Shown one piece after another: positions 956 to 12,641 of a stretch of DNA of 25,656 nucleotides (position 1 is the stretch's first letter; the number at the start of each line of letters is the position of its first letter). A program made the translations under genes and the position numbers. Source of the stretch: Gemmatimonadota bacterium (GTDB lineage: Bacteria > Gemmatimonadota > Gemmatimonadetes > Palauibacterales > Palauibacteraceae). Under the pieces are notes generated by a model, which worked only from the letters and a program-made list of their open reading frames with translations, did no database searches and was not told the origin of the DNA. The stretch covers positions 1 through 25,656 of the forward strand of contig JAOTWC010000001.1 of NCBI GenBank assembly GCA_029863105.1. Reading direction: 5' to 3'.

Positions 956-2209
956 TCAGTTCACCTGCGCGGTATCTCCTCCATATCGGCGCGCGACGTA
1001 GTCCTCGAGGATCGCGATGAACTGCTCGACGATGTCGCCACCTCTCAGCGTCATGGCCGGTTCACCGTCGACGAACACCGGGGCGATGGGCTCCTCGGAT
1101 GTGCCTGGAAGCGAGATACCGATGTCGGCGTGCCGGGACTCCCCGGGGCCGTTTACCACGCACCCCATCACCGCCACGGAGAGCGACTCGACACCGGGGT
1201 GTGTCGACCGCCATTCGGGCATGCGCTCCCGGAGAAATGTCTGAATGTCGAGCGCCATTTCCTGAAAAAACGTGCTGGTCGTTCTGCCGCAACCCGGGCA
1301 GGCAGTAACCTGCGGCTCGAAGCTGCGAATACCCAGTGACTGCAGGATCTGCCGTGCGACCCTGACCTCTTCCGTTCGGTCGCCGCCCGGCATCGGCGTG
1401 AGCGAGACGCGAATCGTATCCCCGATGCCTTCAAACAGCAGCATCGCCAACCCCGCCGAACTCGCAACCGTCCCTTTGCGACCCATCCCCGCTTCGGTCA
1501 GGCCGAGATGCAGCGGGTAGTCGCACAGCGGTGCCAGTGAGCGATAGACAGCCACGAGATCGCGGACGCCCGACACCTTGGCACTCAGGATGATTCTGTC
1601 GTGAGGCAGGCCAATCCTCTCTGCCGCCCGGGCCGAACGAAGGGCGCTCTCGACCATGGCCGCCATCGTGACCTCATGCGCCTCACGCGGTTTCGTCAGC
1701 GCCGCGTTTTCGTCCATCATGCGGGTGAGCAGGACCTGGTCGAGAGAGCCCCAGTTGACGCCGATTCGAACCGGCTTCCCATGCTCGATCGCACACTCGA
1801 TGATGCGCGCGAAGTTTTCGTCCCAGCGCTTGCTGCCAACGTTGCCCGGGTTGATGCGGTACTTGGCGAGCGCCGCGGCGCAGTCGACGTTGCCCGGCAG
1901 CAGGAGGTGTCCGTTGAAGTGGAAGTCGCCGATGAGCGGCACGGTGACGCCATGGGCGTCCAGCCGGGCGACGATCTCGGGGACGGCACGGGCGGCAGCC
2001 GGTGTATTCACCGTGACCCGAACCAGCTCACTGCCCGCCTCGACCAGCGACAGCACCTGAGCCGTCGTAGCCTCTATGTCCGCCGTGTCCGTGCTCGTCA
2101 TCGACTGGACGACGACCGGATGGTCGCCGCCAATGGGCACATTCCCGACGTAAGCCGTTACCGTCGATCGACGCGCGGGCCTGTTCAACCGGATTTCAGG
2201 GTGGGTCAT
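956..2209 (-). CDS. ispG: (E)-4-hydroxy-3-methylbut-2-enyl-diphosphate synthase (MEP pathway)
   Basis: VQSMT, ADFHF-like [39 protein letters not shown], and 4Fe-4S cysteines CPGCGRT and GCVVNGPGE. Start moved to ATG 2209 (MTHPE), preceded by AGGTGG. Confidence 0.97.
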
Positions 2210-2322
2210 CCTGGTGCCACCTGACGCTCTGACTCGGAAAGCTGTGCTGCTCCGTCCGGACGACCGAAAGTACGGGGCCCTGTGGTCACGTTCCAGCAAA
2301 CGCCAGCCAATACGAGTACCAT

Positions 2323-2356
2323 GCAGAGAGGCCCCGGTTCTCCGGGGCCTCTCTGC
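2323..2356. terminator. Perfect 15-bp GC-rich hairpin (terminator-like, no U-tract)
   Basis: gcagagaggccccgg-ttct-ccggggcctctctgc, about 70 nt downstream of the small ORF stop and upstream of ispG. Confidence 0.55.
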
Positions 2357-2427
2357 TGCCCTCCTGCCGCCGGCTGGTGAGACGGTAGTCGGCTGGCGCG
2401 CGTTACCCGCTTCGCTGTTGAGCGCGC

Positions 2428-2628
2428 TCAGTCGTGTCGGGCATGTTCCTTCTTCAGGTACGCCTTGAACCGGCGCTCGAGACCTCTGCGATCTCGGCGC
2501 ATCTCACGCTCGAACGCCAATCGGTGGGCAAACACCGCATCCTTGAGCCATCGGGTGGTCAGCGCCGGGCGCCAACCGGCGCCTCCCGATCCGACCGTTT
2601 CAACTCCCGGACCTCGAAGCCCAAACAT
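2428..2628 (-). CDS. Small basic hypothetical protein, 66 aa ([66 protein letters not shown])
   Basis: AAGGAGG SD 6 nt before ATG 2628; GC3-biased codons in the distal two thirds; upstream promoter and downstream hairpin. The ORF track starts it at a TTG at 2673. Confidence 0.7.
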
Positions 2629-2821
2629 CTGGTGCCTCCTTAGTCGCGCGCCGCCCGCACTCCGCGTGGACAATCTTTGGGTCCGCCTATGTACCTCCGC
2701 GCCGTCACCGTAACCTCAATCCTGACGGGTCACTAACGACGCGATCAACGTCGCGAACGGTCGAATTCTCCCCACCAATCCCCTCGAAATCCACCAAATT
2801 CGGCCCGTTTTTCCACGCCAA

Positions 2822-2869
2822 CCGCAATATCTTGGGGTACGGACATGATACACCCACCAGATGTTGTGG
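2822..2869. promoter_or_regulatory. Tandem NrdR-box-like operators (2822-2837 and 2854-2869)
   Basis: Minus-strand reads CCACAACATCTGGTGG and CCCCAAGATATTGCGG, 32 bp start to start. The second differs by 1 nt from the box upstream of nrdJ. Confidence 0.75.
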
Positions 2870-2874
2870 GTCAA
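2845..2874 (-). promoter_or_regulatory. Sigma70-type promoter for the small ORF
   Basis: TTGACC (2874-2869), 18-nt spacer, TATCAT (2850-2845); predicted +1 near 2838. Confidence 0.7.
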
Positions 2875-2880
2875 GTACGG

Positions 2881-2910
2881 TGGACCCTTCGTTGCCCCGA
2901 CAGGTATCCT
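2881..2910 (+). promoter_or_regulatory. Possible divergent sigma70 promoter for the NTF2-like gene
   Basis: TGGACC-N18-TATCCT; the -10 lies within the inverted repeat acagg-tat-cctgt. Confidence 0.3.
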
Positions 2911-2966
2911 GTAGCCGGCGACGCGGACGAAGGCGTCGACGGGTCCTTCCAGCAGGAGGTTGTGTG

Positions 2967-3569
2967 ATGCATGGAGTGCCGGGTGTGTGGGTGAGGATGG
3001 GTGGGGTCGGGGCACTGCTCGCGGCCGTGGCGTGTAGCGTGCCGTCCGCCCTGCAGGCGCAGGACGGGGAGGCGGGCGCAGAGGTCGAGGCTTCGGCCCC
3101 GAAAGCGAATCCCGCCGACGTCGAGTCGATCGATGCGATCCTGACGGCCGTGTACACCGTGATATCGGGTGAGGCGGGCGAAGAGCGTGACTGGGATCGG
3201 TTCCGGTCGCTGTTTATTCCCGAGGCCCGGCTGATACCGACAGGGTACAGACCTGACGGAACGCACGCGTACATCGTGTGGTCTCCGGATCAATACATCG
3301 AGGCGGCTGGCGCTCAGCTCGTGGCCAACGGGTTCTTCGAACAGGAAGAACACCGGGTGACAGAGCAGTGGGAGGATATCGCCCATGCGTTCAGCACCTA
3401 CAATTCCTACCGAACCGAGGCGGACATGGAGGCGGGAACCACCTTCATGCGAGGAATCAACAGCTTTCAACTGATGTGGGACGGCGAACGGTGGTGGGTC
3501 GTTTCCATCATGTGGGAGGCCGAGGGCCCCGATCGCCCGTTGACCGAGGGGTATCTCGGCAAGGACTGA
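2967..3569 (+). CDS. Exported hypothetical protein, NTF2-like/DUF4440-like fold
   Basis: AGGAGG at 2954-2959, 7 nt before ATG 2967; signal peptide ending ALQA-Q; SIDAIL..VY..ISG...DWDRFRSLF and RGINSFQL..DGERWW pattern typical of small NTF2-like proteins. Confidence 0.75.
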   Translation: MHGVPGVWVRMGGVGALLAAVACSVPSALQAQDGEAGAEVEASAPKANPADVESIDAILTAVYTVISGEAGEERDWDRFRSLFIPEARLIPTGYRPDGTHAYIVWSPDQYIEAAGAQLVANGFFEQEEHRVTEQWEDIAHAFSTYNSYRTEADMEAGTTFMRGINSFQLMWDGERWWVVSIMWEAEGPDRPLTEGYLGKD

Positions 3570-3600
3570 TCCAGGTGGTCGCAACCGGCGACGCTCGCCC

Positions 3601-4260
3601 TCATGCTCGCAGCAACGCCTGCAGGACACCCAGCACCGCAGCTGCGGCGGCCGCCACGACCAGGGGTCGCCAGGTGGACCTCGTTTCCTTTCTCGCCTCC
3701 GGAATCAACTCGCGGAGGACCATCCAGCCCATCGCGCCGGCGGCGAAGCCGAACCCTGCGGCGAGGTAGTCTCGAAACTGGAGAACGAACAGAAACGCGG
3801 GTACGGCAAGGAGCGGCTGGGGAATGCTGGAGAAGAAGCTCCACGCGCCCGCCTTCCAGACGGAGACGCCTCGCGGGACGAGCACGAGCGAGATCGCCAG
3901 GCCTTCTGGAATGTTGTGGACGGCGATAGCCAGCGAGATGAACAGACCGAGTTCGGCCCCACCGCCGAACGACACTCCGATTCCTACGCCCTCGGCCACG
4001 GAGTGAATCGTCATCACGCCGACGATCAGCAGGCTCTTTCTGGCGTCGGCACCCCGGAGATCTCCCACGCGCACGCCGTCGAACCGACCGAGCAGCCAGC
4101 GGCTGGCCGCGATGAACAGCAGGCCGGCGACCAGGCCGGCGCCGAGCCGGCCGGGACTCTGGTGCCAGCCCTCGTACACGAGCTGGCCCGAGGCGGCCAG
4201 CATGAGGCCAGCCGCGGCAGCGTTTCCGTACCCGAGCCAATAGCGCCCGGGTTTGGGCAC
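3601..4260 (-). CDS. ZIP (GufA/ZupT-like) divalent metal transporter; true start probably near 4338
   Basis: TIHSVAEG and AVHNIPEGLAI ZIP transport-site motifs and multiple TM helices. The frame stays open upstream and encodes another TM helix (see findings). Confidence 0.9.
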   Translation of the reverse strand: MPKPGRYWLGYGNAAAAGLMLAASGQLVYEGWHQSPGRLGAGLVAGLLFIAASRWLLGRFDGVRVGDLRGADARKSLLIVGVMTIHSVAEGVGIGVSFGGGAELGLFISLAIAVHNIPEGLAISLVLVPRGVSVWKAGAWSFFSSIPQPLLAVPAFLFVLQFRDYLAAGFGFAAGAMGWMVLRELIPEARKETRSTWRPLVVAAAAAAVLGVLQALLRA

Positions 4261-4430
4261 CCACAGGAACGGCAGGGCGCCGAGACCGGTCGCGGCTGCC
4301 GTCAGCAGGGCTAACAGGAATACGTAGAGTAGTTCGATCGGGGTGTCCCGAGATCACAGGAGACGGCGTGCGGCCAGCGTCACCGCGTCTGACAGGCAAC
4401 GGAACAGCCGACCATCGAGCCGGCAAGACG

Positions 4431-6248
4431 TCAGGCCAGCAGAGCGTCCAGTTCCTGCCGTGCCTCCGCCTGCACTTCCGCATCTCGCTCGATGTCGCGG
4501 ACCATTTCGGTGAGGACTCTTTCCTCTTCACCCGGAGCAACGGACCCGGCCGCTCTCGCCCGGGCCATCGCCGCCAGCGCATCCAGCAGCCTCTGAACGA
4601 GCCGGTCGCGCATGCGAGAGACTCTGGCGTGCGCTTCCATCCAGGCGGGCTGGGAGGTTTCGTTTCCTGCCTGCCGCTCGAGCACTCCCAAACTCTCGTC
4701 CAGACCCGCCAGGTCCCGGGCCAGGTGGCTCGCTCCACGCAGCAATTCGGTGAACACGCCGTCCGGCTGCAAGTCCGGGGTCACCGCGCGAAGTTCGCGG
4801 GCCATCCGGACGAAGTCAGCAAGCAGACGACGGGCCGCACCCTCTGGCATGTCCGCCAGAGCGGCCCTGGCCACAGTCTCGGCATCGACGGGGAGGGACG
4901 ACGTCGTGTTGGCAGACAGCAGCGCGGGGTCCTGGCGGCGCAGCACGGCCCAGATCACGGTTGCCGCGAACAGCGGCGTGATGAGCAACATGGCGGGTGA
5001 TGCAACGAAACCTGCAGCGAACCCCGTTGCGATGGCAGTTCCGAGTACCGCCCCCATGGTCGGGGACAGCCGCGCTCCGACACGCGCAGGGTGCGTGATG
5101 CGGATCGGGAGGCCAGACTCTCGCAAGCGACGGGCGGCCCGGTCCGCCACGGCTGCCGGCACTCGGGCAAGCGGCAGATCCCCACACAACGCGGCACTGA
5201 CATCGGACTGCGATCGGTCGTCACCCACGATGTCCGACAGCTGGTCGGCTATGTCCTGACGGTGATTCCGGTCGTCACCGCGTTCGAGGAACAACAGTCG
5301 TTCATTGGCCGGCCGACGGTCGTGTGATCCTGGTCCCAGGCAAGAGCCGCATAGTCCAAGGCCGAATGGATCGGCGGCACCGCACAACAGGCAGACGCGT
5401 CGGCCCGCAGAACTGAGGAAGCCGGATGAGACGTCACCACCCGATTCCAGCACTTCTGACAGAGTACCGGCCGTGGGAAACCGCTGTCCCGGATCTTCAC
5501 GCGTCAGGGTCGCGGTTACGTCGTCCAGCCACGCCGGGATATCCGGGCACTGTGATCGTGGCCGAAAGCCCACCGGTGATGGACTCGGCGGCAGGTGAGC
5601 CGACTTCTGGTTGGGCAGCATTCCCGTCAACGCGAAGTACAGGGTAGTTCCCAGACCATACAGATCCGACCTCGCATCTCCGCGTTCACCGGCCAGGATC
5701 TCGGGAGCCGTGTACGCGATCGTGCCCACCAGGCCGCCGGTCCGGGTCACCGTGCTCATGTCCGTTACGCGGGCCGATCCGAAGTCCGCCAGTCGCGCTC
5801 TGCCGTTCCCGCCGAGGAGCACGTTCTGTGGCTTCACGTCACGATGCAGCACGCCCATCGCATGGGCAGCCTGGAGTGCCGCCGAGATATCCAGGCCGAT
5901 CCGAACGGTTCCGTCTGCCGTCAAGCGTCCCTGGTGAGCTACGCGTCGGGCCAGGTCGGGCCCGTCAACGAATTCCATCACGAGGAATGTCCGTCCGTCC
6001 CGGTCGACGAAATCATGAAGCTGGACGACGTTCGGGTGTGAGAGACCGCGGGCTACGAGCGCCTCCCTGCGCATTCTCTCTTTGGCAACTGCCTCGGCGG
6101 TGGGGGGCGGCACAAGCAGCTTGATGGCTACCGGCGAATCGAGCGTCAGGTCCCTCGCCCGATACACGACGGAGTAACCGCCACGGCCAATCTCTTCCTC
6201 GATTCGGTACCGGTCAGCGAGGACGTGGTCCGCCGCCAGGTGGGTCAC
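4431..6248 (-). CDS. Hanks-type Ser/Thr protein kinase with Cys4 motif, two TM segments and a helical C-terminus
   Basis: IGRGGYSVVY Gly loop, VAIK, HRDVKPQN, DFG, GTIAYTAPE and DLYGLG; CLLC...CGSC at 5340-5393; hydrophobic hairpin near residues 400-437. Confidence 0.93.
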   Translation of the reverse strand: MTHLAADHVLADRYRIEEEIGRGGYSVVYRARDLTLDSPVAIKLLVPPPTAEAVAKERMRREALVARGLSHPNVVQLHDFVDRDGRTFLVMEFVDGPDLARRVAHQGRLTADGTVRIGLDISAALQAAHAMGVLHRDVKPQNVLLGGNGRARLADFGSARVTDMSTVTRTGGLVGTIAYTAPEILAGERGDARSDLYGLGTTLYFALTGMLPNQKSAHLPPSPSPVGFRPRSQCPDIPAWLDDVTATLTREDPGQRFPTAGTLSEVLESGGDVSSGFLSSAGRRVCLLCGAADPFGLGLCGSCLGPGSHDRRPANERLLFLERGDDRNHRQDIADQLSDIVGDDRSQSDVSAALCGDLPLARVPAAVADRAARRLRESGLPIRITHPARVGARLSPTMGAVLGTAIATGFAAGFVASPAMLLITPLFAATVIWAVLRRQDPALLSANTTSSLPVDAETVARAALADMPEGAARRLLADFVRMARELRAVTPDLQPDGVFTELLRGASHLARDLAGLDESLGVLERQAGNETSQPAWMEAHARVSRMRDRLVQRLLDALAAMARARAAGSVAPGEEERVLTEMVRDIERDAEVQAEARQELDALLA

Positions 6249-7589: not shown

Positions 7590-8801
7590 TCAGAAAGCGT
7601 CCGGCGCGACCAGGTCGAGGTAGTTCGCGACGAAGAGATCGTGGAACTCCTGGGAACTCAGGATGTGCCCCTGCTTCTGGGCGAGATCTGCCACACGAAA
7701 TCCGAACTGTGCTGCGCGCATCCGCTGGGCGGGCGTGCCGTGGTGGCCGGGATCCGAGAACCCGCAGTCACCGAGTTCGAAGAACACTTCGAGGAACTGC
7801 TCGACGCGCCGCTGTCGCAGCGTGCCGCCCCGGGCATGCGTCAGGTAGTACGCGGACATCGCGTCGGCCATCAGTTCCGTGTAGCGGGTCGCTTCCGCGG
7901 CGTTCGGACCTCCGGGATCCGTCGTGGGGATCGGATCGCTGAAATAGTCATTCTCGAACTGTATGTGATGCGCGAACTCGTGTGAATATATCGCCTGCGG
8001 CGCGACGTCTCCGAACCCGAGCGCCTCGTAGGCCTCGAGTATGGCGTCGCCCATCACGATCCGGTCGGAGATTCCGGAACCCGGATTGCTGAACGCGAAG
8101 GCGTTGAAGCTGAACAGCACGTGGTTCCCGCCGTCGAGTATCTCCGACTCGGAGAGCGCGTCGAGGATGAGGGACGCGAAGAAATCGGCAGTGGCCTCTG
8201 ATTCGCCGAAAGCCACCTGGTAGGTCAGCGATACGCGCTCGGGATCCTGCAGCATCGTTCCCTTCATGGCGAGCAGGAGGATGTCATCGGAGTTGATGTC
8301 CCAGAAGCGCCTCACGTCCCTGTCTGTCTTCCGCATGACTTGGGTGAACTGGCCGTCGTATCCGAATTCCTGCGGCAACGACCCGTCCTGGAGCAGCAGG
8401 GCTTCGAACTGCGGGATCAGATCGGCCAGCAGGCCGAAGAACAGCAGATTGAACAGGTCGGGTTCTCCGAACACGAACTCGAAGAACTCGTCCAGGAAAA
8501 AATCGATCACGGCGGTCGAGGGTGGGCACTGGAACTCGCCGGGGTTGATCGCCCGGTCCACGGCGTTTGCGAAGTGGGACTCGGTCAGCCCGGTTTCGAG
8601 GAGACGCGTGCGCGCGCCGTCGCGGTCGAGGCCGGTAGGAAGCGAGACATCGAGATCCGAGACCACGGCCGACATCTGGCCGGGAGTGACCAAGTCGCCG
8701 ACCGTCACGGTCGGGGGGCCGGGTTCCGTGACTTGATCCTGACAGCCGACAGCGCCGAATGCGAGCAGCAGACCGGAACCGAACAGGGCTGTCCTTCTCA
8801 T
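7590..8801 (-). CDS. Lipoprotein with neutral zinc metallopeptidase-like domain
   Basis: Signal MRRTALFGSGLLLAFGAVG-C; HEFAHHIQ (HEXXH), downstream ELMAD, and HGTPAQR as in YpfJ-like zinc peptidases; GGAGG SD before ATG 8801. Confidence 0.75.
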   Translation of the reverse strand: MRRTALFGSGLLLAFGAVGCQDQVTEPGPPTVTVGDLVTPGQMSAVVSDLDVSLPTGLDRDGARTRLLETGLTESHFANAVDRAINPGEFQCPPSTAVIDFFLDEFFEFVFGEPDLFNLLFFGLLADLIPQFEALLLQDGSLPQEFGYDGQFTQVMRKTDRDVRRFWDINSDDILLLAMKGTMLQDPERVSLTYQVAFGESEATADFFASLILDALSESEILDGGNHVLFSFNAFAFSNPGSGISDRIVMGDAILEAYEALGFGDVAPQAIYSHEFAHHIQFENDYFSDPIPTTDPGGPNAAEATRYTELMADAMSAYYLTHARGGTLRQRRVEQFLEVFFELGDCGFSDPGHHGTPAQRMRAAQFGFRVADLAQKQGHILSSQEFHDLFVANYLDLVAPDAF

Positions 8802-8976
8802 GATCGTTCCCCTCCAGGTAGCATGAATCGCGGCGACATGCACTCAGGTAGTGAGGAGAAATAATCGCTGGGATTGCTCATGGGCAAGTCGGCTCCCTGA
8901 GACGCTTCGAGGTTCAAGTGTCGCTGCCGGGAGTGACCAGGTATACGTTTTCTTTTCACTTTTGCCGGAGATGACC

Positions 8977-9817: not shown

Positions 9818-12361
9818 TCAACCGCACTCGCTGTACCCGCAGGCGTGGCATTTCACGCAACCCTCGGCGAACTCGAGTCCGGAACCGCAATCCGGACAGG
9901 TACCGATAAACGTAAGCGCCGCCTGCTCTTCGAACCGGTGGATGACCGGTTTGTGGGCGGTCTGGGTGCCACCGTTGGTGACCTTCGCGGCACCGGGGTC
10001 CGGGATCGGGAGCGACTGCTGGATCCCTTCCTTTTCCTCGAGATGCCTCTCGATGACCTGGGCGATCGCATCCGGGCTGGACAGAACCTTGTTGGGGCCC
10101 ATGCCCACGGCGCGGTCCGAACTGATCCCGCGCAGCTGCTTGTGAATCGCGCGGAGTGAGATTCCGCTCCTGAGAGCCAGGCTGATCAGTCGGCCGATCG
10201 CCTCGGCATCGGCCATGGCCGGTCCGCCCGCCTTGCCCAGTGCGACGAACGCCTCGAATGGGCGGCCTTCCTGGTCTTCGTTGATCGTCACGTACATGTC
10301 GCCGAGGGGTGAGTCGATCTTGCGGGTGACACCCCGGAGCTCAGCTGGCCGCGATCGGACCAGCGGGGCCTTCATCCGACCGCCCTCCAACGCCGCGATT
10401 GTCTTGCCGCTCTCCTCGAGCTCCGACTCCAGGTCAGCGATGCGGCCAAGCGCCGCGGTGAGGGCTTCCGTCAGCTCCGGGTCCCCTATCTGGTCGAATC
10501 CCGTGGTGCCGCGACCCGCATCTGCTACGACCTTCCGGGCCGTCTTGCCGGTAGAGAGTACCTGCGCGTCACGTGAACCATCCCGGTACACCGTCACTCC
10601 CTTGCACTTCAGCTGGTAGGCGAGCTCGTAGATCCTCCGAACATCTTCTTCCGTCGCGTCGTTCGGAAAGTTGCACGTCTTCGAGATCGCGGAGTCGGTG
10701 TACTGCTGGAAGGCCGCCTGCATCCGGATGTGCTGCTCCGGAGTCACGTCGTGGGCTGTCGTAAACGTCTGCTGCACGTCCTCGGGAACTTCGTCGAAAT
10801 GGATATGGCCCTCGGTGGCGATACGCTCCATCAGCTCGTCGGAGTACCAGCCTTGCTCTCTGGCAAGTTCGACGAACATCGGGTTCACATCGGGCATCAG
10901 GACGCCCGCCTGATTGCGCATGAACGCAACCGCAAACAATGGCTCGATGCCACTGGAGCAACCGGCGATGATGGAAATCGTACCGGTCGGCGCCACGGTC
11001 GTCATGTTGCAGTTGCGGAGGCGCCGCATCGGTCGGATTCGGCTGCCGCCTTTGTCGCGTGCGCAGCTGTCGTCCGGACCCCAAATGGACTTCTCCCACT
11101 CCGGGAACACGCCTCGTTCCCGAGCCAGGCGCTCGGATTCGACCTTGGATTCCTCGTCGACGAACCGCATCAACTCGCGTCCCAGCTCGATCGACCGCGG
11201 CGACCCGTAGGGCTCCCCGAGCTGTACGAGCATATCCGCCCAACCCATCACTCCAAGACCGATGCGCCGGATCCTCTTGGACAGTTCCTCTATCGGAGGT
11301 AGTGGGTACTTGTTCGCATCGATCACATTATCGAGGAAGTGCGTCGCCTTGTGGACGGCCGTGCGGAGCGAGTCCCAGTCGATCTTTCCGTCTTCGACGA
11401 AGGCGCCGACGTTCACCGAACCCAGATTGCACACATCGTACGGGAGCAGCGGTTGTTCACCGCACGGGTTGGTCGCCTCGTAGGAGCCCATGTGCGGTAC
11501 GGGATTGTACCGGTTCGCTTCGTCGATGAAATAGACGCCGGGCTCCCCGTTCCGCCACGCCCCGTGGATGACCTTGCCGAATACTTCGCGCGCATCCAAT
11601 TGACCGACGACTTCTCCACCACGTGGATTATGGAGATCGTACGGTTCATTGCGCTCGATCGCGGCCATGAAATCGTCCGTGATGGCTACGGAGATGTTGA
11701 AGTTCGTGATCTTGTTCTTGTCGGACTTGCAGTCGATGAAGTGCAGGATGTCCGGGTGGTCGACACGGAGGATGCCCATGTTCGCTCCGCGTCGGGTGCC
11801 ACCCTGCTTGACGGCCTCCGTGGAAGCATCGTAAACCTCCATGAAGCTGACCGGTCCGCTCGCGACGCCCATGGTCGACTTTACGACGTCTCCCTGGGGC
11901 CTCAGCCGGGAGAAGCCAAATCCGGTTCCCCCGCCCGACTGGTGAATCAGGGCCATGTCGCGCAGTGTTTCGTAGATACCTTCCAGACTGTCCGGCACGG
12001 GAAGGACGAAGCACGCACTCAGCTGACCGAGAGGACGCCCGGCGTTCATCAGCGTCGGACTGTTGGGCTCGAACTGACCCAGCGCCATCATTTCGTAGAA
12101 CTCGCGCGCGGTGGACTCGATCTGAGCTTCGGTTGCGCCGTACCCGGCGTCCATCCCGGCTATCACACGTGCCACGCGCCAGAACATGTCGGTCGGCGAT
12201 TCGCTCAACTCGAGGTCGTCGTTCTTCTTCAGGTACCGCTTACCGAGAACCGTTACGGCATTATCCGTCAGGCGCGGCTGTGGGAGGTCCGCGGGGGTGG
12301 TTCCGGGATCGACGGAGGTGGGGGCCGCCTCCGACTTCATCGCCGTGTCTGGTGACTGCAT
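9818..12361 (-). CDS. nrdJ: Class II (adenosylcobalamin-dependent) ribonucleoside-diphosphate reductase with fused TSCPD-type domain and Zn ribbon
   Basis: PNSPTLMNAG, LSACFV, GGGTGF, QGGTRRGANM, ATNPCGEQ (thiyl Cys), TTVAPTGTIS, SAISKTCNF and KGVTVYRDGSR; C-terminal CPDC..CVKCHACGYSEC; AGGAG SD. Confidence 0.97.
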   Translation of the reverse strand: MQSPDTAMKSEAAPTSVDPGTTPADLPQPRLTDNAVTVLGKRYLKKNDDLELSESPTDMFWRVARVIAGMDAGYGATEAQIESTAREFYEMMALGQFEPNSPTLMNAGRPLGQLSACFVLPVPDSLEGIYETLRDMALIHQSGGGTGFGFSRLRPQGDVVKSTMGVASGPVSFMEVYDASTEAVKQGGTRRGANMGILRVDHPDILHFIDCKSDKNKITNFNISVAITDDFMAAIERNEPYDLHNPRGGEVVGQLDAREVFGKVIHGAWRNGEPGVYFIDEANRYNPVPHMGSYEATNPCGEQPLLPYDVCNLGSVNVGAFVEDGKIDWDSLRTAVHKATHFLDNVIDANKYPLPPIEELSKRIRRIGLGVMGWADMLVQLGEPYGSPRSIELGRELMRFVDEESKVESERLARERGVFPEWEKSIWGPDDSCARDKGGSRIRPMRRLRNCNMTTVAPTGTISIIAGCSSGIEPLFAVAFMRNQAGVLMPDVNPMFVELAREQGWYSDELMERIATEGHIHFDEVPEDVQQTFTTAHDVTPEQHIRMQAAFQQYTDSAISKTCNFPNDATEEDVRRIYELAYQLKCKGVTVYRDGSRDAQVLSTGKTARKVVADAGRGTTGFDQIGDPELTEALTAALGRIADLESELEESGKTIAALEGGRMKAPLVRSRPAELRGVTRKIDSPLGDMYVTINEDQEGRPFEAFVALGKAGGPAMADAEAIGRLISLALRSGISLRAIHKQLRGISSDRAVGMGPNKVLSSPDAIAQVIERHLEEKEGIQQSLPIPDPGAAKVTNGGTQTAHKPVIHRFEEQAALTFIGTCPDCGSGLEFAEGCVKCHACGYSECG

Positions 12362-12605
12362 GAGGTCCGCACTCCTGAGCTTCTTAGCCTATTCTTCCTG
12401 CCTCTTATGCCTACCCCCGAAGGGGACGAAAATCTAAGGTTGTCCCTTGCACCGCGCCGGATTTCGAAGTGACGGCTCCCCCTCGGGTGCATAACACCCG
12501 CTGAAAACATCCTCGAGATTGCGTGCAATGTTTGTCGAACCGGCGGGACAGGGCCGGATGGTCCGGAGCGGCACCAGCGCCGCCACACACCCCAATATCT
12601 TGGGG
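12362..12605 (-). other. Long (~245 nt) structured 5' leader of nrdJ
   Basis: Stems at 12505-12533, 12484-12500 and 12423-12446, and a C(UUCG)G hairpin at 12414-12425. Confidence 0.4.
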
Positions 12606-12637
12606 CCCGACTAGAATAAAAACCCTATATGTAGTGG
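12590..12637. promoter_or_regulatory. Tandem NrdR boxes (12590-12605 and 12622-12637)
   Basis: Plus-strand CCCCAATATCTTGGGG and ACCCTATATGTAGTGG match the NrdR consensus acaCwAtATaTwGtg, are 32 bp apart, and lie upstream of an RNR gene. Confidence 0.88.
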
Positions 12638-12641
12638 TCAA
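12613..12641 (-). promoter_or_regulatory. Sigma70-type promoter of nrdJ
   Basis: TTGACC (12641-12636), N17, TATTCT (12618-12613), overlapped by the first NrdR box. Confidence 0.8.

What the first reader, a model, noticed from the sequence alone, without database searches (positions are those of the whole stretch)
2428..2642. Unannotated 66-aa basic small protein as the apparent output of the NrdR-boxed promoter
Seen in sequence: AAGGAGG-N6-ATG, 66 codons with GC3 bias in the distal part, a Gly-rich flexible N-terminus, then a predicted charged helix ([34 protein letters not shown]; 16 K/R against 8 D/E) and a downstream 15-bp hairpin. I recognise no family. Inference: it could be a small RNR modulator or a nucleic-acid-binding protein coupled to dNTP status. 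The NrdJ here has no N-terminal ATP cone, so an external activity regulator is plausible.
Basis: partly seen in the sequence, partly recalled or inferred. Interest (0 to 1): 0.8.

Follow-up and report, generated by a model that had tools for sequence, protein, structure and literature searches.

The report
NrdR- and DnaA-boxed orphan small protein
A real 66-residue helical protein gene, found in only one family of uncultured Gemmatimonadota, sits just downstream of the ribonucleotide reductase gene. It has its own promoter with binding sites for the dNTP-sensing repressor NrdR and a row of sites for the replication initiator DnaA, so it is probably an undescribed player in DNA-precursor supply or replication control.

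Summary
Window 2428-2628 (minus strand) is a genuine protein gene with AAGGAGG-N6-ATG and 66 codons.

- **Conservation:** homologs of 50-71 aa were found in 20 genomes from 19 genera of one Gemmatimonadota family. Within-genus dN/dS is 0.17 overall and 0.09 in the helix.
- **Family:** it matches no Pfam, NCBIfam or PDB entry. In 1.84 billion representative proteins only 32 match. It was not found in about 370 genomes of other families of the phylum.
- **Transcription unit:** it stands alone. The order is TTGACC, NrdR box 1, TATCAT, NrdR box 2 (16-bp linker, all six key positions met), a ~210-nt leader, the ORF, then a strong hairpin.

1. The leader DNA carries a helically phased, co-oriented array of DnaA-box-like 9-mers. 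There are 51 in 19 leaders against 1.3 expected, and the same motif flanks the clade's oriC.
2. The unit always lies between nrdJ and ispG.
3. In sister genomes the nrdJ promoter has the same NrdR-plus-DnaA layout.
4. The genome has only three NrdR sites: this one, nrdJ, and a 109-aa unknown ORF.

The protein models as a disordered tail plus one 40-residue helix, with an invariant RxAFExEMxRxR block. Co-regulation with nrdJ is well supported. The proposed role as an RNR modulator remains untested inference.

The parts
2869..2874 (-). -35 hexamer TTGACC of the small-ORF promoter. Its last C is the first base of NrdR box 1.
   Evidence: Only promoter-like site in 2200-3000 (10 of 12 matches, spacer 18). 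TTGAC/TTGCC is conserved at this spot in genus relatives and other genera.
2854..2869 (-). NrdR box 1 (CCACAACATCTGGTGG), lying between -35 and -10.
   Evidence: C4, A6, A8, T9, T11 and G13 are all present, which are the criteria given in PMC13584703.
2845..2850 (-). -10 hexamer TATCAT. The predicted transcription start is about 2838.
   Evidence: The start site is predicted, not measured.
2822..2837 (-). NrdR box 2 (CCCCAAGATATTGCGG), with a 16-bp linker to box 1.
   Evidence: It is 15 of 16 identical to box 2 of the nrdJ promoter (12590-12605). Tandem boxes 31-32 bp apart were scored in 14 of the 19 loci with enough upstream DNA; the other five gave one box above threshold.
2766..2817 (-). 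Array of co-oriented DnaA-box-like 9-mers in the leader DNA. CGTGGAAAA at 2809-2817 is a full match. GGTGGATTT (2787-2795), GGGGATTGG (2775-2783) and TGGGGAGAA (2766-2774) are weaker.
   Evidence: Across 19 leaders there are 51 sense GTGGAnA motifs against 1.3 expected and 3 antisense. They sit at register 5/27/37/48/58/79 after box 2. This genome's copy is partly degenerate.
2665..2673 (+). Inverted DnaA-box-like site (CGTGGACAA on the plus strand), about 40 nt before the ATG.
   Evidence: An antisense T.TCCAC lies at the same place in three genus relatives.
2629..2838 (-). Predicted ~210-nt leader (5' UTR), including the Shine-Dalgarno AAGGAGG at 2635-2641.
   Evidence: No Rfam family matches.
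2428..2628 (-). Small ORF of 66 aa plus stop. It has a disordered, variable N-tail (1-24) and one long helix (25-65) with the invariant block R36-x-A-F-E-x-E-M-x-R-x-R47.
2323..2356 (-). 15-bp GC-rich hairpin that closes the unit. It is a terminator candidate but has no U-run in this copy.
   Evidence: An equivalent hairpin lies 40-90 nt after the stop in nearly all of the 20 loci, and seven of these are followed by T-runs. The strict terminator scan is negative here.
956..2209 (-). ispG (GcpE), the conserved downstream neighbour.
   Evidence: Pfam GcpE, E 8e-115. It is downstream of the small ORF in 17 of 20 loci.
9818..12361 (-). nrdJ (class II RNR, no ATP cone), the conserved upstream neighbour on the same strand.
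   Evidence: Coordinates put nrdJ 0.26-9 kb upstream of the small ORF in all contigs that hold both.
12590..12637 (-). Tandem NrdR boxes of the nrdJ promoter, which has the same layout as the small-ORF promoter.

Best explanation
The locus is an autonomous, monocistronic gene for a lineage-specific 64-71 aa protein. It belongs to the same regulatory module as the class II ribonucleotide reductase gene nrdJ.

Shown:
- The ORF is under purifying selection as a protein.
- Its promoter is occupied by a canonical NrdR operator. Box 1 lies between -35 and -10, and box 2 lies at the predicted start.
- The first ~100 bp of transcribed DNA carry a helically phased, head-to-tail row of DnaA-box-like sites.
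- The unit always sits directly downstream of nrdJ and upstream of ispG.
- nrdJ promoters of sister genera have the same NrdR-plus-DnaA layout.

Inferred from established NrdR and DnaA biology:
[quoted passage not shown] When dNTPs are drawn down during DNA synthesis, the promoter opens.
- DnaA bound to the array downstream of the start adds a replication-cycle input, most likely a brake while DnaA occupancy is high.
- The protein is therefore made together with NrdJ when DNA precursors are needed.

Inferred from the protein:
- It has a floppy N-tail and one 40-residue helix.
- Its invariant residues (RxAFExEMxRxR) face all sides of the helix, which suggests the helix docks into a partner rather than acting as an enzyme.
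- My best guess for the partner is NrdJ or another component of the dNTP-supply/replication machinery. The protein would then be a small accessory modulator that is dispensable in some lineages.
For: Coding:
- 20 homologs have ATG and a Shine-Dalgarno sequence and are 50-71 aa long.
- There is a third-position excess of substitutions, 294/258/717.
- dN/dS is 0.17 overall and 0.09 in the helix core.
- Gene callers predict it independently.

NrdR control:
- Tandem boxes 31-32 bp apart were scored upstream of 14 of the 19 loci with enough upstream DNA, and one box above threshold in the other five.
- All six critical positions and the 16-bp linker match the published criteria.
- nrdR is present in the genome.
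- There are only three tandem sites genome-wide, one of them at nrdJ.
- The minus-strand promoter is the only one in the region and is conserved.

DnaA input:
- There are 51 sense motifs against 1.3 expected, 3 antisense, with spacings of 11/21-22/32/42 bp.
- The consensus yGTGGAAAA is the reverse complement of TTTTCCACr, within the classical TT(A/T)TNCACA box.
- The same 9-mer abuts a CTA-repeat and AT-rich element between dnaA and dnaN, the likely oriC.
- dnaA is present.
- The same array follows the NrdR boxes of nrdJ in 9 sister genera.

Module and linkage:
- The order nrdJ, small ORF, ispG is conserved.
- In one genus the ~600-bp unit is present in G295 and not found in G022, and it lies exactly between nrdJ and ispG.
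- A hairpin follows the ORF.

Fold:
- AF2 gives pLDDT above 90 for residues 25-65 as one helix.
- Conservation runs all round the helix.
Against: - No binding or expression was measured. The transcription start is predicted only.
- The RNA evidence is a single low-depth (2.8) metatranscriptome contig covering 2376-2538, and DNA carry-over cannot be excluded.
- This genome's own DnaA array is partly degenerate, with one full match.
- The one-orientation motif could in principle act in the RNA rather than the DNA.
- The hairpin lacks a U-run here, so read-through into ispG is possible.
- No NrdJ column separates genomes with and without the ORF.
- Three f1 genera with the same NrdJ gave no match to the ORF, so any RNR role is accessory.
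- The genomes are related MAGs, so counts across them overstate independence.
Confidence: 0.6

Rival explanations
1. The protein acts on replication initiation rather than on RNR. It would be a DnaA-controlled small effector that feeds back on DnaA, the clamp or a checkpoint, and NrdR adds dNTP status as a second input. B. subtilis sda is a comparable DnaA-regulated gene (from my own knowledge).
For: A phased DnaA-box array lies directly in front of the ORF. An inverted box lies near the ATG in this genus. The protein is small, helical and non-enzymatic.
Against: The same array decorates nrdJ itself in sister genera, so the array marks the RNR module and is not specific to an initiation regulator. 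No clamp-binding or known DnaA-binding motif is conserved across genera. There is no homology to Sda, SirA, YabA or Hda.
Confidence: 0.17
2. It is a basic nucleic-acid-binding peptide, for example an RNA chaperone or a DNA- or ribosome-associated factor, made when DNA synthesis is active.
For: Net charge is between +2 and +8 and pI is above 10 in 17 of 20 members. The helix is Arg-rich.
Against: Two members are neutral or only weakly basic: pI 6.6 with net charge 0, and pI 8.4 with net charge +1. The invariant block contains two glutamates and Phe/Met, which is unlike a generic polycation. There is no match to known nucleic-acid-binding families.
Confidence: 0.1
3. The ORF is secondary. The locus would mainly be a DNA-level or RNA-level device: a DnaA-titrating or reactivating site swept by an NrdR-gated transcript, or a regulatory leader/upstream ORF that sets ispG expression.
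For: ispG follows in 17 of 20 loci. The hairpin has no U-run here. The leader is long and carries conserved motifs.
Against: The peptide sequence itself is strongly constrained, with core dN/dS 0.09 and eight invariant residues, unlike attenuator peptides. The stop-to-hairpin gap of 40-90 nt does not fit ribosome-coupled attenuation. In two genomes where ~1.5 kb of downstream DNA was searched, the ORF has no ispG behind it. In G022, which has no match to the ORF, ispG sits fine directly after nrdJ.
Confidence: 0.08
4. It is not a real gene, only a chance open frame in GC-rich intergenic DNA.
For: Short ORFs are frequent at 63% GC. An overlapping 69-aa frame exists on the plus strand.
Against: Frame, length, ATG and Shine-Dalgarno sequence are conserved over 19 genera, with synonymous-biased divergence.
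Confidence: 0.02

Closest known systems
E. coli nrdAB (and nrdDG) promoter region: NrdR boxes plus DnaA boxes
   Same: One promoter integrates the dATP/ATP-sensing repressor NrdR, through two 16-bp boxes about three helical turns apart that overlap the promoter, with DnaA bound to nearby 9-mers (PMC11317965; PMC13584703; PMC9110341).
   Different: Here the regulated product is not an RNR subunit but an orphan 66-aa protein. The DnaA sites form a 3-5-box head-to-tail array downstream of the start at ~10.5-bp register, not a close double box upstream. Binding is not demonstrated.
Non-RNR NrdR target: topA of Pseudomonas aeruginosa
   Same: It shows that NrdR can control a gene outside the RNR operons (PMC4409342).
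   Different: topA has a single box and is activated. Here there is a full two-box operator in the repressor configuration, conserved across a bacterial family, and the target is of unknown function.
B. subtilis sda and the non-oriC DnaA-box clusters (from my own knowledge of the literature, not checked here)
   Same: A very small protein gene whose transcription is set by DnaA bound to a box cluster at its promoter, linking replication status to another process.
   Different: There is no sequence or fold relationship. Sda is a helical hairpin that inhibits a sporulation kinase, it has no NrdR input, and the phylum is different.
Eukaryotic small RNR regulators Sml1, Spd1, Dif1 and Hug1 (from my own knowledge)
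   Same: Small, largely disordered proteins with a short helix that bind the large RNR subunit and are regulated with DNA-synthesis demand.
   Different: There is no homology. They are inhibitors removed in S phase, whereas this gene is wired to be co-induced with the RNR. No bacterial equivalent is known, and the interaction is untested here.

Membership tests
NrdR operator (NrdR regulon member) | Two partially palindromic 16-bp boxes with conserved C4, A6, A8, T9, T11 and G13 | tested here: met
   Box 1 is CCACAACATCTGGTGG and box 2 is CCCCAAGATATTGCGG. Both have all six positions, which are the criteria from PMC13584703.
NrdR operator (NrdR regulon member) | Linker of 15-16 bp (boxes about three helical turns apart) | tested here: met
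   The linker is 16 bp (2838-2853). Box starts are 31-32 bp apart in the 14 relatives' loci where two boxes scored above threshold.
NrdR operator (NrdR regulon member) | Boxes overlap the core promoter of the regulated gene | tested here: met
   Box 1 lies between TTGACC and TATCAT. Box 2 lies at the predicted +1. The transcription start is predicted only.
NrdR operator (NrdR regulon member) | nrdR gene present in the genome, and the same operator at the RNR gene | tested here: met
   TIGR00244 hit above cut-off at G000:C72. nrdJ carries a near-identical operator.
NrdR operator (NrdR regulon member) | NrdR binds in the presence of dATP plus ATP and represses | not testable with these tools
   Needs EMSA/MST, ChIP or a reporter assay.
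DnaA-box cluster (DnaA-regulated promoter) | 9-mers matching TT(A/T)TNCACA | tested here: met
   The family consensus yGTGGAAAA is the reverse complement of TTTTCCACr. The window has one full match at 2809-2817 and weaker neighbours.
DnaA-box cluster (DnaA-regulated promoter) | Several boxes clustered beyond chance, with spacing compatible with oligomer binding | tested here: met
   51 observed against 1.3 expected. All lie within 110 nt of box 2, with spacings of 11/21-22/32/42 bp. Related genomes are not independent.
DnaA-box cluster (DnaA-regulated promoter) | The same motif is used at the organism's oriC, and dnaA is present | tested here: met
   TTTTCCACG lies next to a CTA-repeat and AT-rich element in the dnaA-dnaN spacer of three relatives. 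G000 has weaker copies there.
DnaA-box cluster (DnaA-regulated promoter) | DnaA occupancy and an effect on transcription | not testable with these tools
   Needs ChIP-seq, footprinting or reporter assays.
Chromosomal origin (oriC) | DnaA boxes plus an AT-rich unwinding element, usually near dnaA/dnaN | tested here: not met
   There is no AT-rich element in 2640-2880. In the complete genome G022, dnaA lies 1.3 Mb from the nrdJ-ispG locus. An oriC-like element is present between dnaA and dnaN instead.
Transcription-attenuation leader peptide for ispG | A peptide of unconstrained sequence apart from regulatory codons, a terminator overlapping or abutting the ORF end, and obligatory linkage to the downstream gene | tested here: not met
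   Core dN/dS is 0.09 with eight invariant residues. The hairpin lies 40-90 nt after the stop. In two loci no ispG was found within the ~1.5 kb downstream.
Any described protein family (Pfam, NCBIfam, PDB sequences) | Significant profile match | tested here: not met
   No Pfam or NCBIfam hit at E <= 0.01 for any of 20 members. The best PDB hit has E 2.3. The Atlas gave no usable hit.
Sml1/Spd1-type RNR-binding small regulators | Direct binding to the RNR large subunit that alters its activity | not testable with these tools
   There is no sequence similarity. No NrdJ alignment column separates genomes with and without the ORF.

The most novel reading that the evidence does not exclude
The peptide is a dedicated protein regulator of a bacterial class II ribonucleotide reductase, a prokaryotic counterpart of Sml1/Spd1. 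It would dock its invariant RxAFExEMxRxR helix onto the cone-less NrdJ to tune activity or specificity. It would be expressed under joint NrdR (dNTP) and DnaA (replication-cycle) control. This would be the first trans-acting activity regulator of a bacterial RNR.
Probability: 0.2. Interest if true: 0.85.

Novelty: new variant of a known kind. Interest (0 to 1): 0.6.

Why it matters
NrdR is generally treated as an RNR-specific repressor, and published surveys of its boxes look only upstream of RNR operons. Here a full two-box operator, duplicated from or convergent with the nrdJ one, has been kept for a whole bacterial family in front of an orphan micro-protein. It is joined to a phased DnaA-box array.

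This gives a sharply defined candidate for an unknown accessory factor of dNTP supply or replication coupling. The candidate is 66 aa, forms one helix, and has a 12-residue invariant motif, so it can be synthesised and tested directly.

The locus also gives a clean natural example of dual NrdR/DnaA promoter logic outside the Proteobacteria. Finally, the same neighbourhood holds a second unknown ORF (109 aa) that carries NrdR boxes in several genera. This hints that the NrdR regulon in Gemmatimonadota is wider than RNR.

Tried and rejected
1. **Known RNA.** Rfam at gathering threshold on the window and at E-value threshold on 2150-3050 gave only chance hits on the hairpin.
2. **Known protein family.** Pfam, NCBIfam, PDB sequence profiles and the ESM Atlas gave nothing. 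I did not run fold search because a single helix matches any helix.
3. **Origin by duplication of the nrdJ 5' coding end.** A shared P-x-L-T motif and, in this genus, YLKK prompted this idea. hhalign gave probability 0.3%. DNA local alignments in 10 genomes showed no signal except one z=3.5 match. Rejected as unsupported.
4. **Covariation with NrdJ.** No alignment column separates genomes with and without the ORF, though power is low.
5. **oriC reading of the DnaA array.** Rejected.
6. **A second promoter inside the leader** (recurrent TTGAC/TTGAG about 75-110 nt before the ATG). No consistent -10 across genera, so it is left unexplained.
7. **Strict DnaA-box clusters elsewhere in G000.** None with 3 or more boxes in 200 bp, but the assembly is 82% complete and fragmented.
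8. **Transcription evidence.** One perfect 163-nt contig in an estuary metatranscriptome at depth 2.8 is inconclusive.
9. **The search for related loci with the 20-sequence alignment** failed for lack of a conserved stretch. A 7-sequence alignment found only 12 further Gemmatimonadota MAG loci.

Full report
**Observation**

The feature lies on the minus strand. AAGGAGG (2641..2635) is followed by six bases and ATG (2628..2626). The frame runs 66 codons to a stop at 2430..2428. The product has 16 K/R against 8 D/E.

A 15-bp GC-rich hairpin lies at 2323-2356, 72 nt after the stop. After it comes ispG/GcpE on the same strand, not an RNR gene. nrdJ is at 9818-12361, also on the minus strand, and has no ATP-cone domain.

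Upstream of the ORF, the only sigma-70-like site of the region is TTGACC-18-TATCAT on the minus strand. One NrdR box (2854-2869) lies between the hexamers. A second (2822-2837) lies at the predicted start, 16 bp further on. Both boxes carry the six positions that mutational work identifies as critical, and the published 15-16 bp linker (PMC13584703).

**Is the ORF real?**

A six-frame search of 40 related genomes found the frame in 20 genomes from 19 genera of one family.
- Every copy has an ATG. Most have a GGAGG-like Shine-Dalgarno sequence 5-8 nt before the ATG, and two have none recognisable.
- The copies are 64-71 aa long, with one of 50 aa.
- The N-terminal ~20 residues vary freely. From an invariant Pro onward the sequence is well kept: P..LT.RWL+.A..AHR.AFE.EM.R.RR, with eight invariant residues.
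- Within the genus, differences fall 294/258/717 on codon positions 1/2/3.
- Median dN/dS is 0.17 overall, 0.09 in the helical core and 0.41 in the tail, although dS is saturated in several pairs.
- Independent gene callers have predicted the same protein as 'hypothetical', one from a Gemmatimonadota MAG.

I treat the coding status as settled.

**Distribution and family**

- A profile of the 20 sequences against 1.84 billion representative proteins found only 32 matches. Nearly all are 56-75 aa.
- A profile search of 401 genomes across the phylum found it only in family f1: 9 of 30 sampled there and 0 of about 370 elsewhere. Within f1, genus g16 has it in 1 of 19 genomes and g15 in 0 of 3.
- All named records are uncultured Gemmatimonadota or Gemmatimonadales MAGs.
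- No Pfam, NCBIfam, PDB-sequence or Atlas relative was found.

**Anatomy of the unit across genomes**

Tandem NrdR boxes 31-32 bp apart were scored 135-275 nt upstream of the ATG in 14 of the 19 loci with enough upstream DNA, and one box above threshold in the other five. In the genus alignment the -35, box 1, -10 and box 2 are the best conserved stretch. The divergent gene on the other side (window 2967-3569, plus strand) is conserved only within the genus, so the operator belongs to the small ORF.

A strong hairpin follows the stop by 40-90 nt in nearly all loci, and in seven of them T-runs follow it. The window's own copy has no T-run and fails a strict terminator scan.

ispG follows in 17 of 20 loci.

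Comparing coordinates, nrdJ lies upstream on the same strand in every contig that holds both. The gap runs from about 260 nt (G008, G023) to 7-9 kb (this genome, G019). The conserved order is therefore nrdJ, then the NrdR operator, leader, small ORF and hairpin, then ispG.

Within genus g16 the ~600-bp unit is present in G295 exactly between nrdJ and ispG. No match to it was found in the complete genome G022, where ispG follows nrdJ after about 130 nt. It behaves as a discrete module.

**A second regulator: DnaA-box array**

Directly after NrdR box 2 the leader DNA carries repeated nGTGGAnAA motifs, all in the sense orientation.
- In 19 leaders (3,640 nt) there are 51 GTGGAnA motifs, against 1.3 expected from shuffles and 3 on the other strand.
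- All lie within the first 110 nt, at register about 5, 27, 37, 48, 58 and 79 after box 2. Spacings are 11, 21-22, 32 and 42 bp, which are multiples of a helical turn.
- The consensus yGTGGAAAA is the reverse complement of TTTTCCACr. This is within the classical DnaA box TT(A/T)TNCACA (established knowledge). The strict E. coli consensus TTATCCACA is cited in PMC11317965.
- In three relatives the same 9-mer abuts a CTACTACTAC repeat and an AT-rich stretch in the dnaA-dnaN spacer. That is the expected layout of an origin with DnaA-trios. dnaA is present.

The locus itself is not an origin. It has no AT-rich element, and in G022 the nrdJ-ispG locus is 1.3 Mb from dnaA.

In this genome the array is partly degenerate. 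There is one perfect box at 2809-2817, three weaker boxes at the expected register (2766-2795), and an inverted CGTGGACAA at 2665-2673.

The same NrdR-then-DnaA layout precedes nrdJ itself in nine sister genera, including G022. It does not precede nrdJ in this genus, where only the small-ORF promoter has it. Family f2 has NrdR boxes at nrdJ but no such array.

**Regulon context**

The 82%-complete assembly has only three tandem NrdR sites: this one, nrdJ, and one on contig C135.

The third site precedes a 109-aa ORF with no known family. That ORF is conserved across the order (39 of 41 genomes) and lies in the same neighbourhood, 1-8 kb beyond the small ORF or ispG in f1. It has NrdR boxes in this genus and a few other genera only. 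Its leader has a conserved GC-rich element instead of DnaA boxes.

nrdR is present.

**The protein**

AlphaFold2 with the 20-sequence alignment gives a disordered residue range 1-24 and a single helix 25-65 at pLDDT above 90.

Invariant residues R36, A38, F39, E40, E42, M43, R45 and R47 point to all sides of the helix; the conservation moment is 0.08. This fits a helix that is gripped by a partner or self-associates. It does not fit a one-sided membrane or surface helix.

Most members are basic, but two are neutral or only weakly basic.

**How it most likely works**

Shown: a protein-coding, autonomous unit with a canonical NrdR operator and a DnaA-box-like array, fixed next to nrdJ and wired like nrdJ.

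Inferred from published NrdR mechanism: the dATP/ATP-loaded tetramer binds the two boxes and represses, while the ATP-only dodecamer does not bind (PMC9110341). The gene would therefore be derepressed when dATP falls during DNA synthesis.

Inferred from DnaA biology: an oligomer on boxes downstream of the start would modulate transcription according to DnaA status, and probably impede it. DnaA also regulates nrdAB and binds upstream of nrdDG in E. coli (PMC11317965).

Inferred from the protein: it acts by docking its helix on a partner. My rough odds for the partner or target:
- NrdJ or the dNTP-supply machinery: about 0.35, of which a true activity modulator of NrdJ is about 0.2.
- DnaA or the replisome: about 0.17.
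- Nucleic acid: about 0.1.
- ispG-related or a DNA/RNA-level device: about 0.08.
- Something else: the remainder.

Arguments against an obligatory RNR role are the absence of a match in g11, g15 and most g16 genomes, which have the same cone-less NrdJ, and the lack of NrdJ covariation.

**Expression data**

Four of the listed sediment metagenome runs hold most (83-100%) of the locus's sampled words. One estuary metatranscriptome contains a 163-nt contig identical to 2376-2538, which covers the ORF 3' half and the 3' UTR up to the hairpin. Its depth is 2.8, and no equally perfect contig covers ispG. This is compatible with a transcript ending at the hairpin. It is too thin to count, and DNA carry-over cannot be excluded.

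**Comparison with known systems and earlier notes**

- Functionally the promoter is closest to E. coli nrdAB, which has both NrdR and DnaA inputs.
- The idea of a non-RNR NrdR target has a precedent in P. aeruginosa topA, which has a single box and is activated (PMC4409342).
- A DnaA-controlled micro-protein recalls B. subtilis sda, and a small RNR-binding regulator recalls yeast Sml1. Both comparisons are from my own knowledge, and neither is homologous.
- Notes from this scan on other genomes report DnaA-box arrays at nrdR/nrdJ promoters and an orphan NrdR site inside a DnaA-box cluster. I did not test those. They suggest that the NrdR-DnaA pairing recurs, not that this protein was seen before.

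**Verdict**

The case is a new variant of a known regulatory theme with an orphan output. Interest is 0.6.

Noticed in passing
G000 contig C135 = L064:2002-2548 (not in the window): This is the third and only other tandem NrdR operator of the genome (TTGACC, box 1, -10, box 2, plus strand). It precedes a 109-aa ORF with no known family, followed by pyruvate kinase, and a cold-shock protein gene diverges from it. The ORF is conserved in 39 of 41 genomes of the order and lies in the same neighbourhood as nrdJ, the small ORF and ispG. NrdR boxes are present in this genus and about 3-5 other genera only.
   Followed up: partly
L064:2060-2200 and the equivalent leaders in L078-L090: The leader of the 109-aa ORF holds a conserved GC-rich element (GGCGCCCGGCGGGA ... 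CCCGTCgaTTGCGCTTCGCC ... GGCGgGGGCGCCGG) that looks like a structured RNA. Rfam gave no match at E <= 1.
   Followed up: partly
G000 contig C288 (reverse complement about 1870-2100); L060-L062: The likely oriC of the clade lies in the dnaA-dnaN spacer. It has TTTTCCACG-type DnaA boxes, then a CCCTACTACTACTAC repeat (DnaA-trio-like), then an AT-rich stretch.
   Followed up: partly
window 12362-12640 (minus) and nrdJ leaders in L035-L043: In this genus the nrdJ promoter has NrdR boxes but no DnaA-box array. In nine sister genera nrdJ has both. Several nrdJ leaders share a conserved 'ggccggcattcga...cgcgg...gggtcccggccgaagccgg' segment of unknown role. Rfam finds no riboswitch in the window.
   Followed up: no
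window 2640-2760 (minus) and equivalent leaders: A recurrent TTGAC/TTGAG motif (TTGAGGTTACGGTGAYGG in the genus) lies 75-110 nt upstream of the small-ORF ATG, with no consistent -10. It could be a second promoter, an RNA element or another binding site, and remains unresolved.
   Followed up: partly
G018:C3 37458-41285, G015:C13 15625-18282, G012:C38 6169-12705: In some relatives nrdJ matches in separated pieces within very long open frames (1281-2255 aa), which suggests intein insertions in the RNR gene.
   Followed up: no
window 2967-3569 (+), 3467-4738 (-), 7590-8843 (-): Several sizeable ORFs between nrdJ and the small ORF have no Pfam match. The ORF at 2967 begins with a signal-peptide-like segment and is conserved only within the genus. 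This 7-kb stretch looks like an insertion into the ancestral nrdJ, small ORF, ispG cluster.
   Followed up: no
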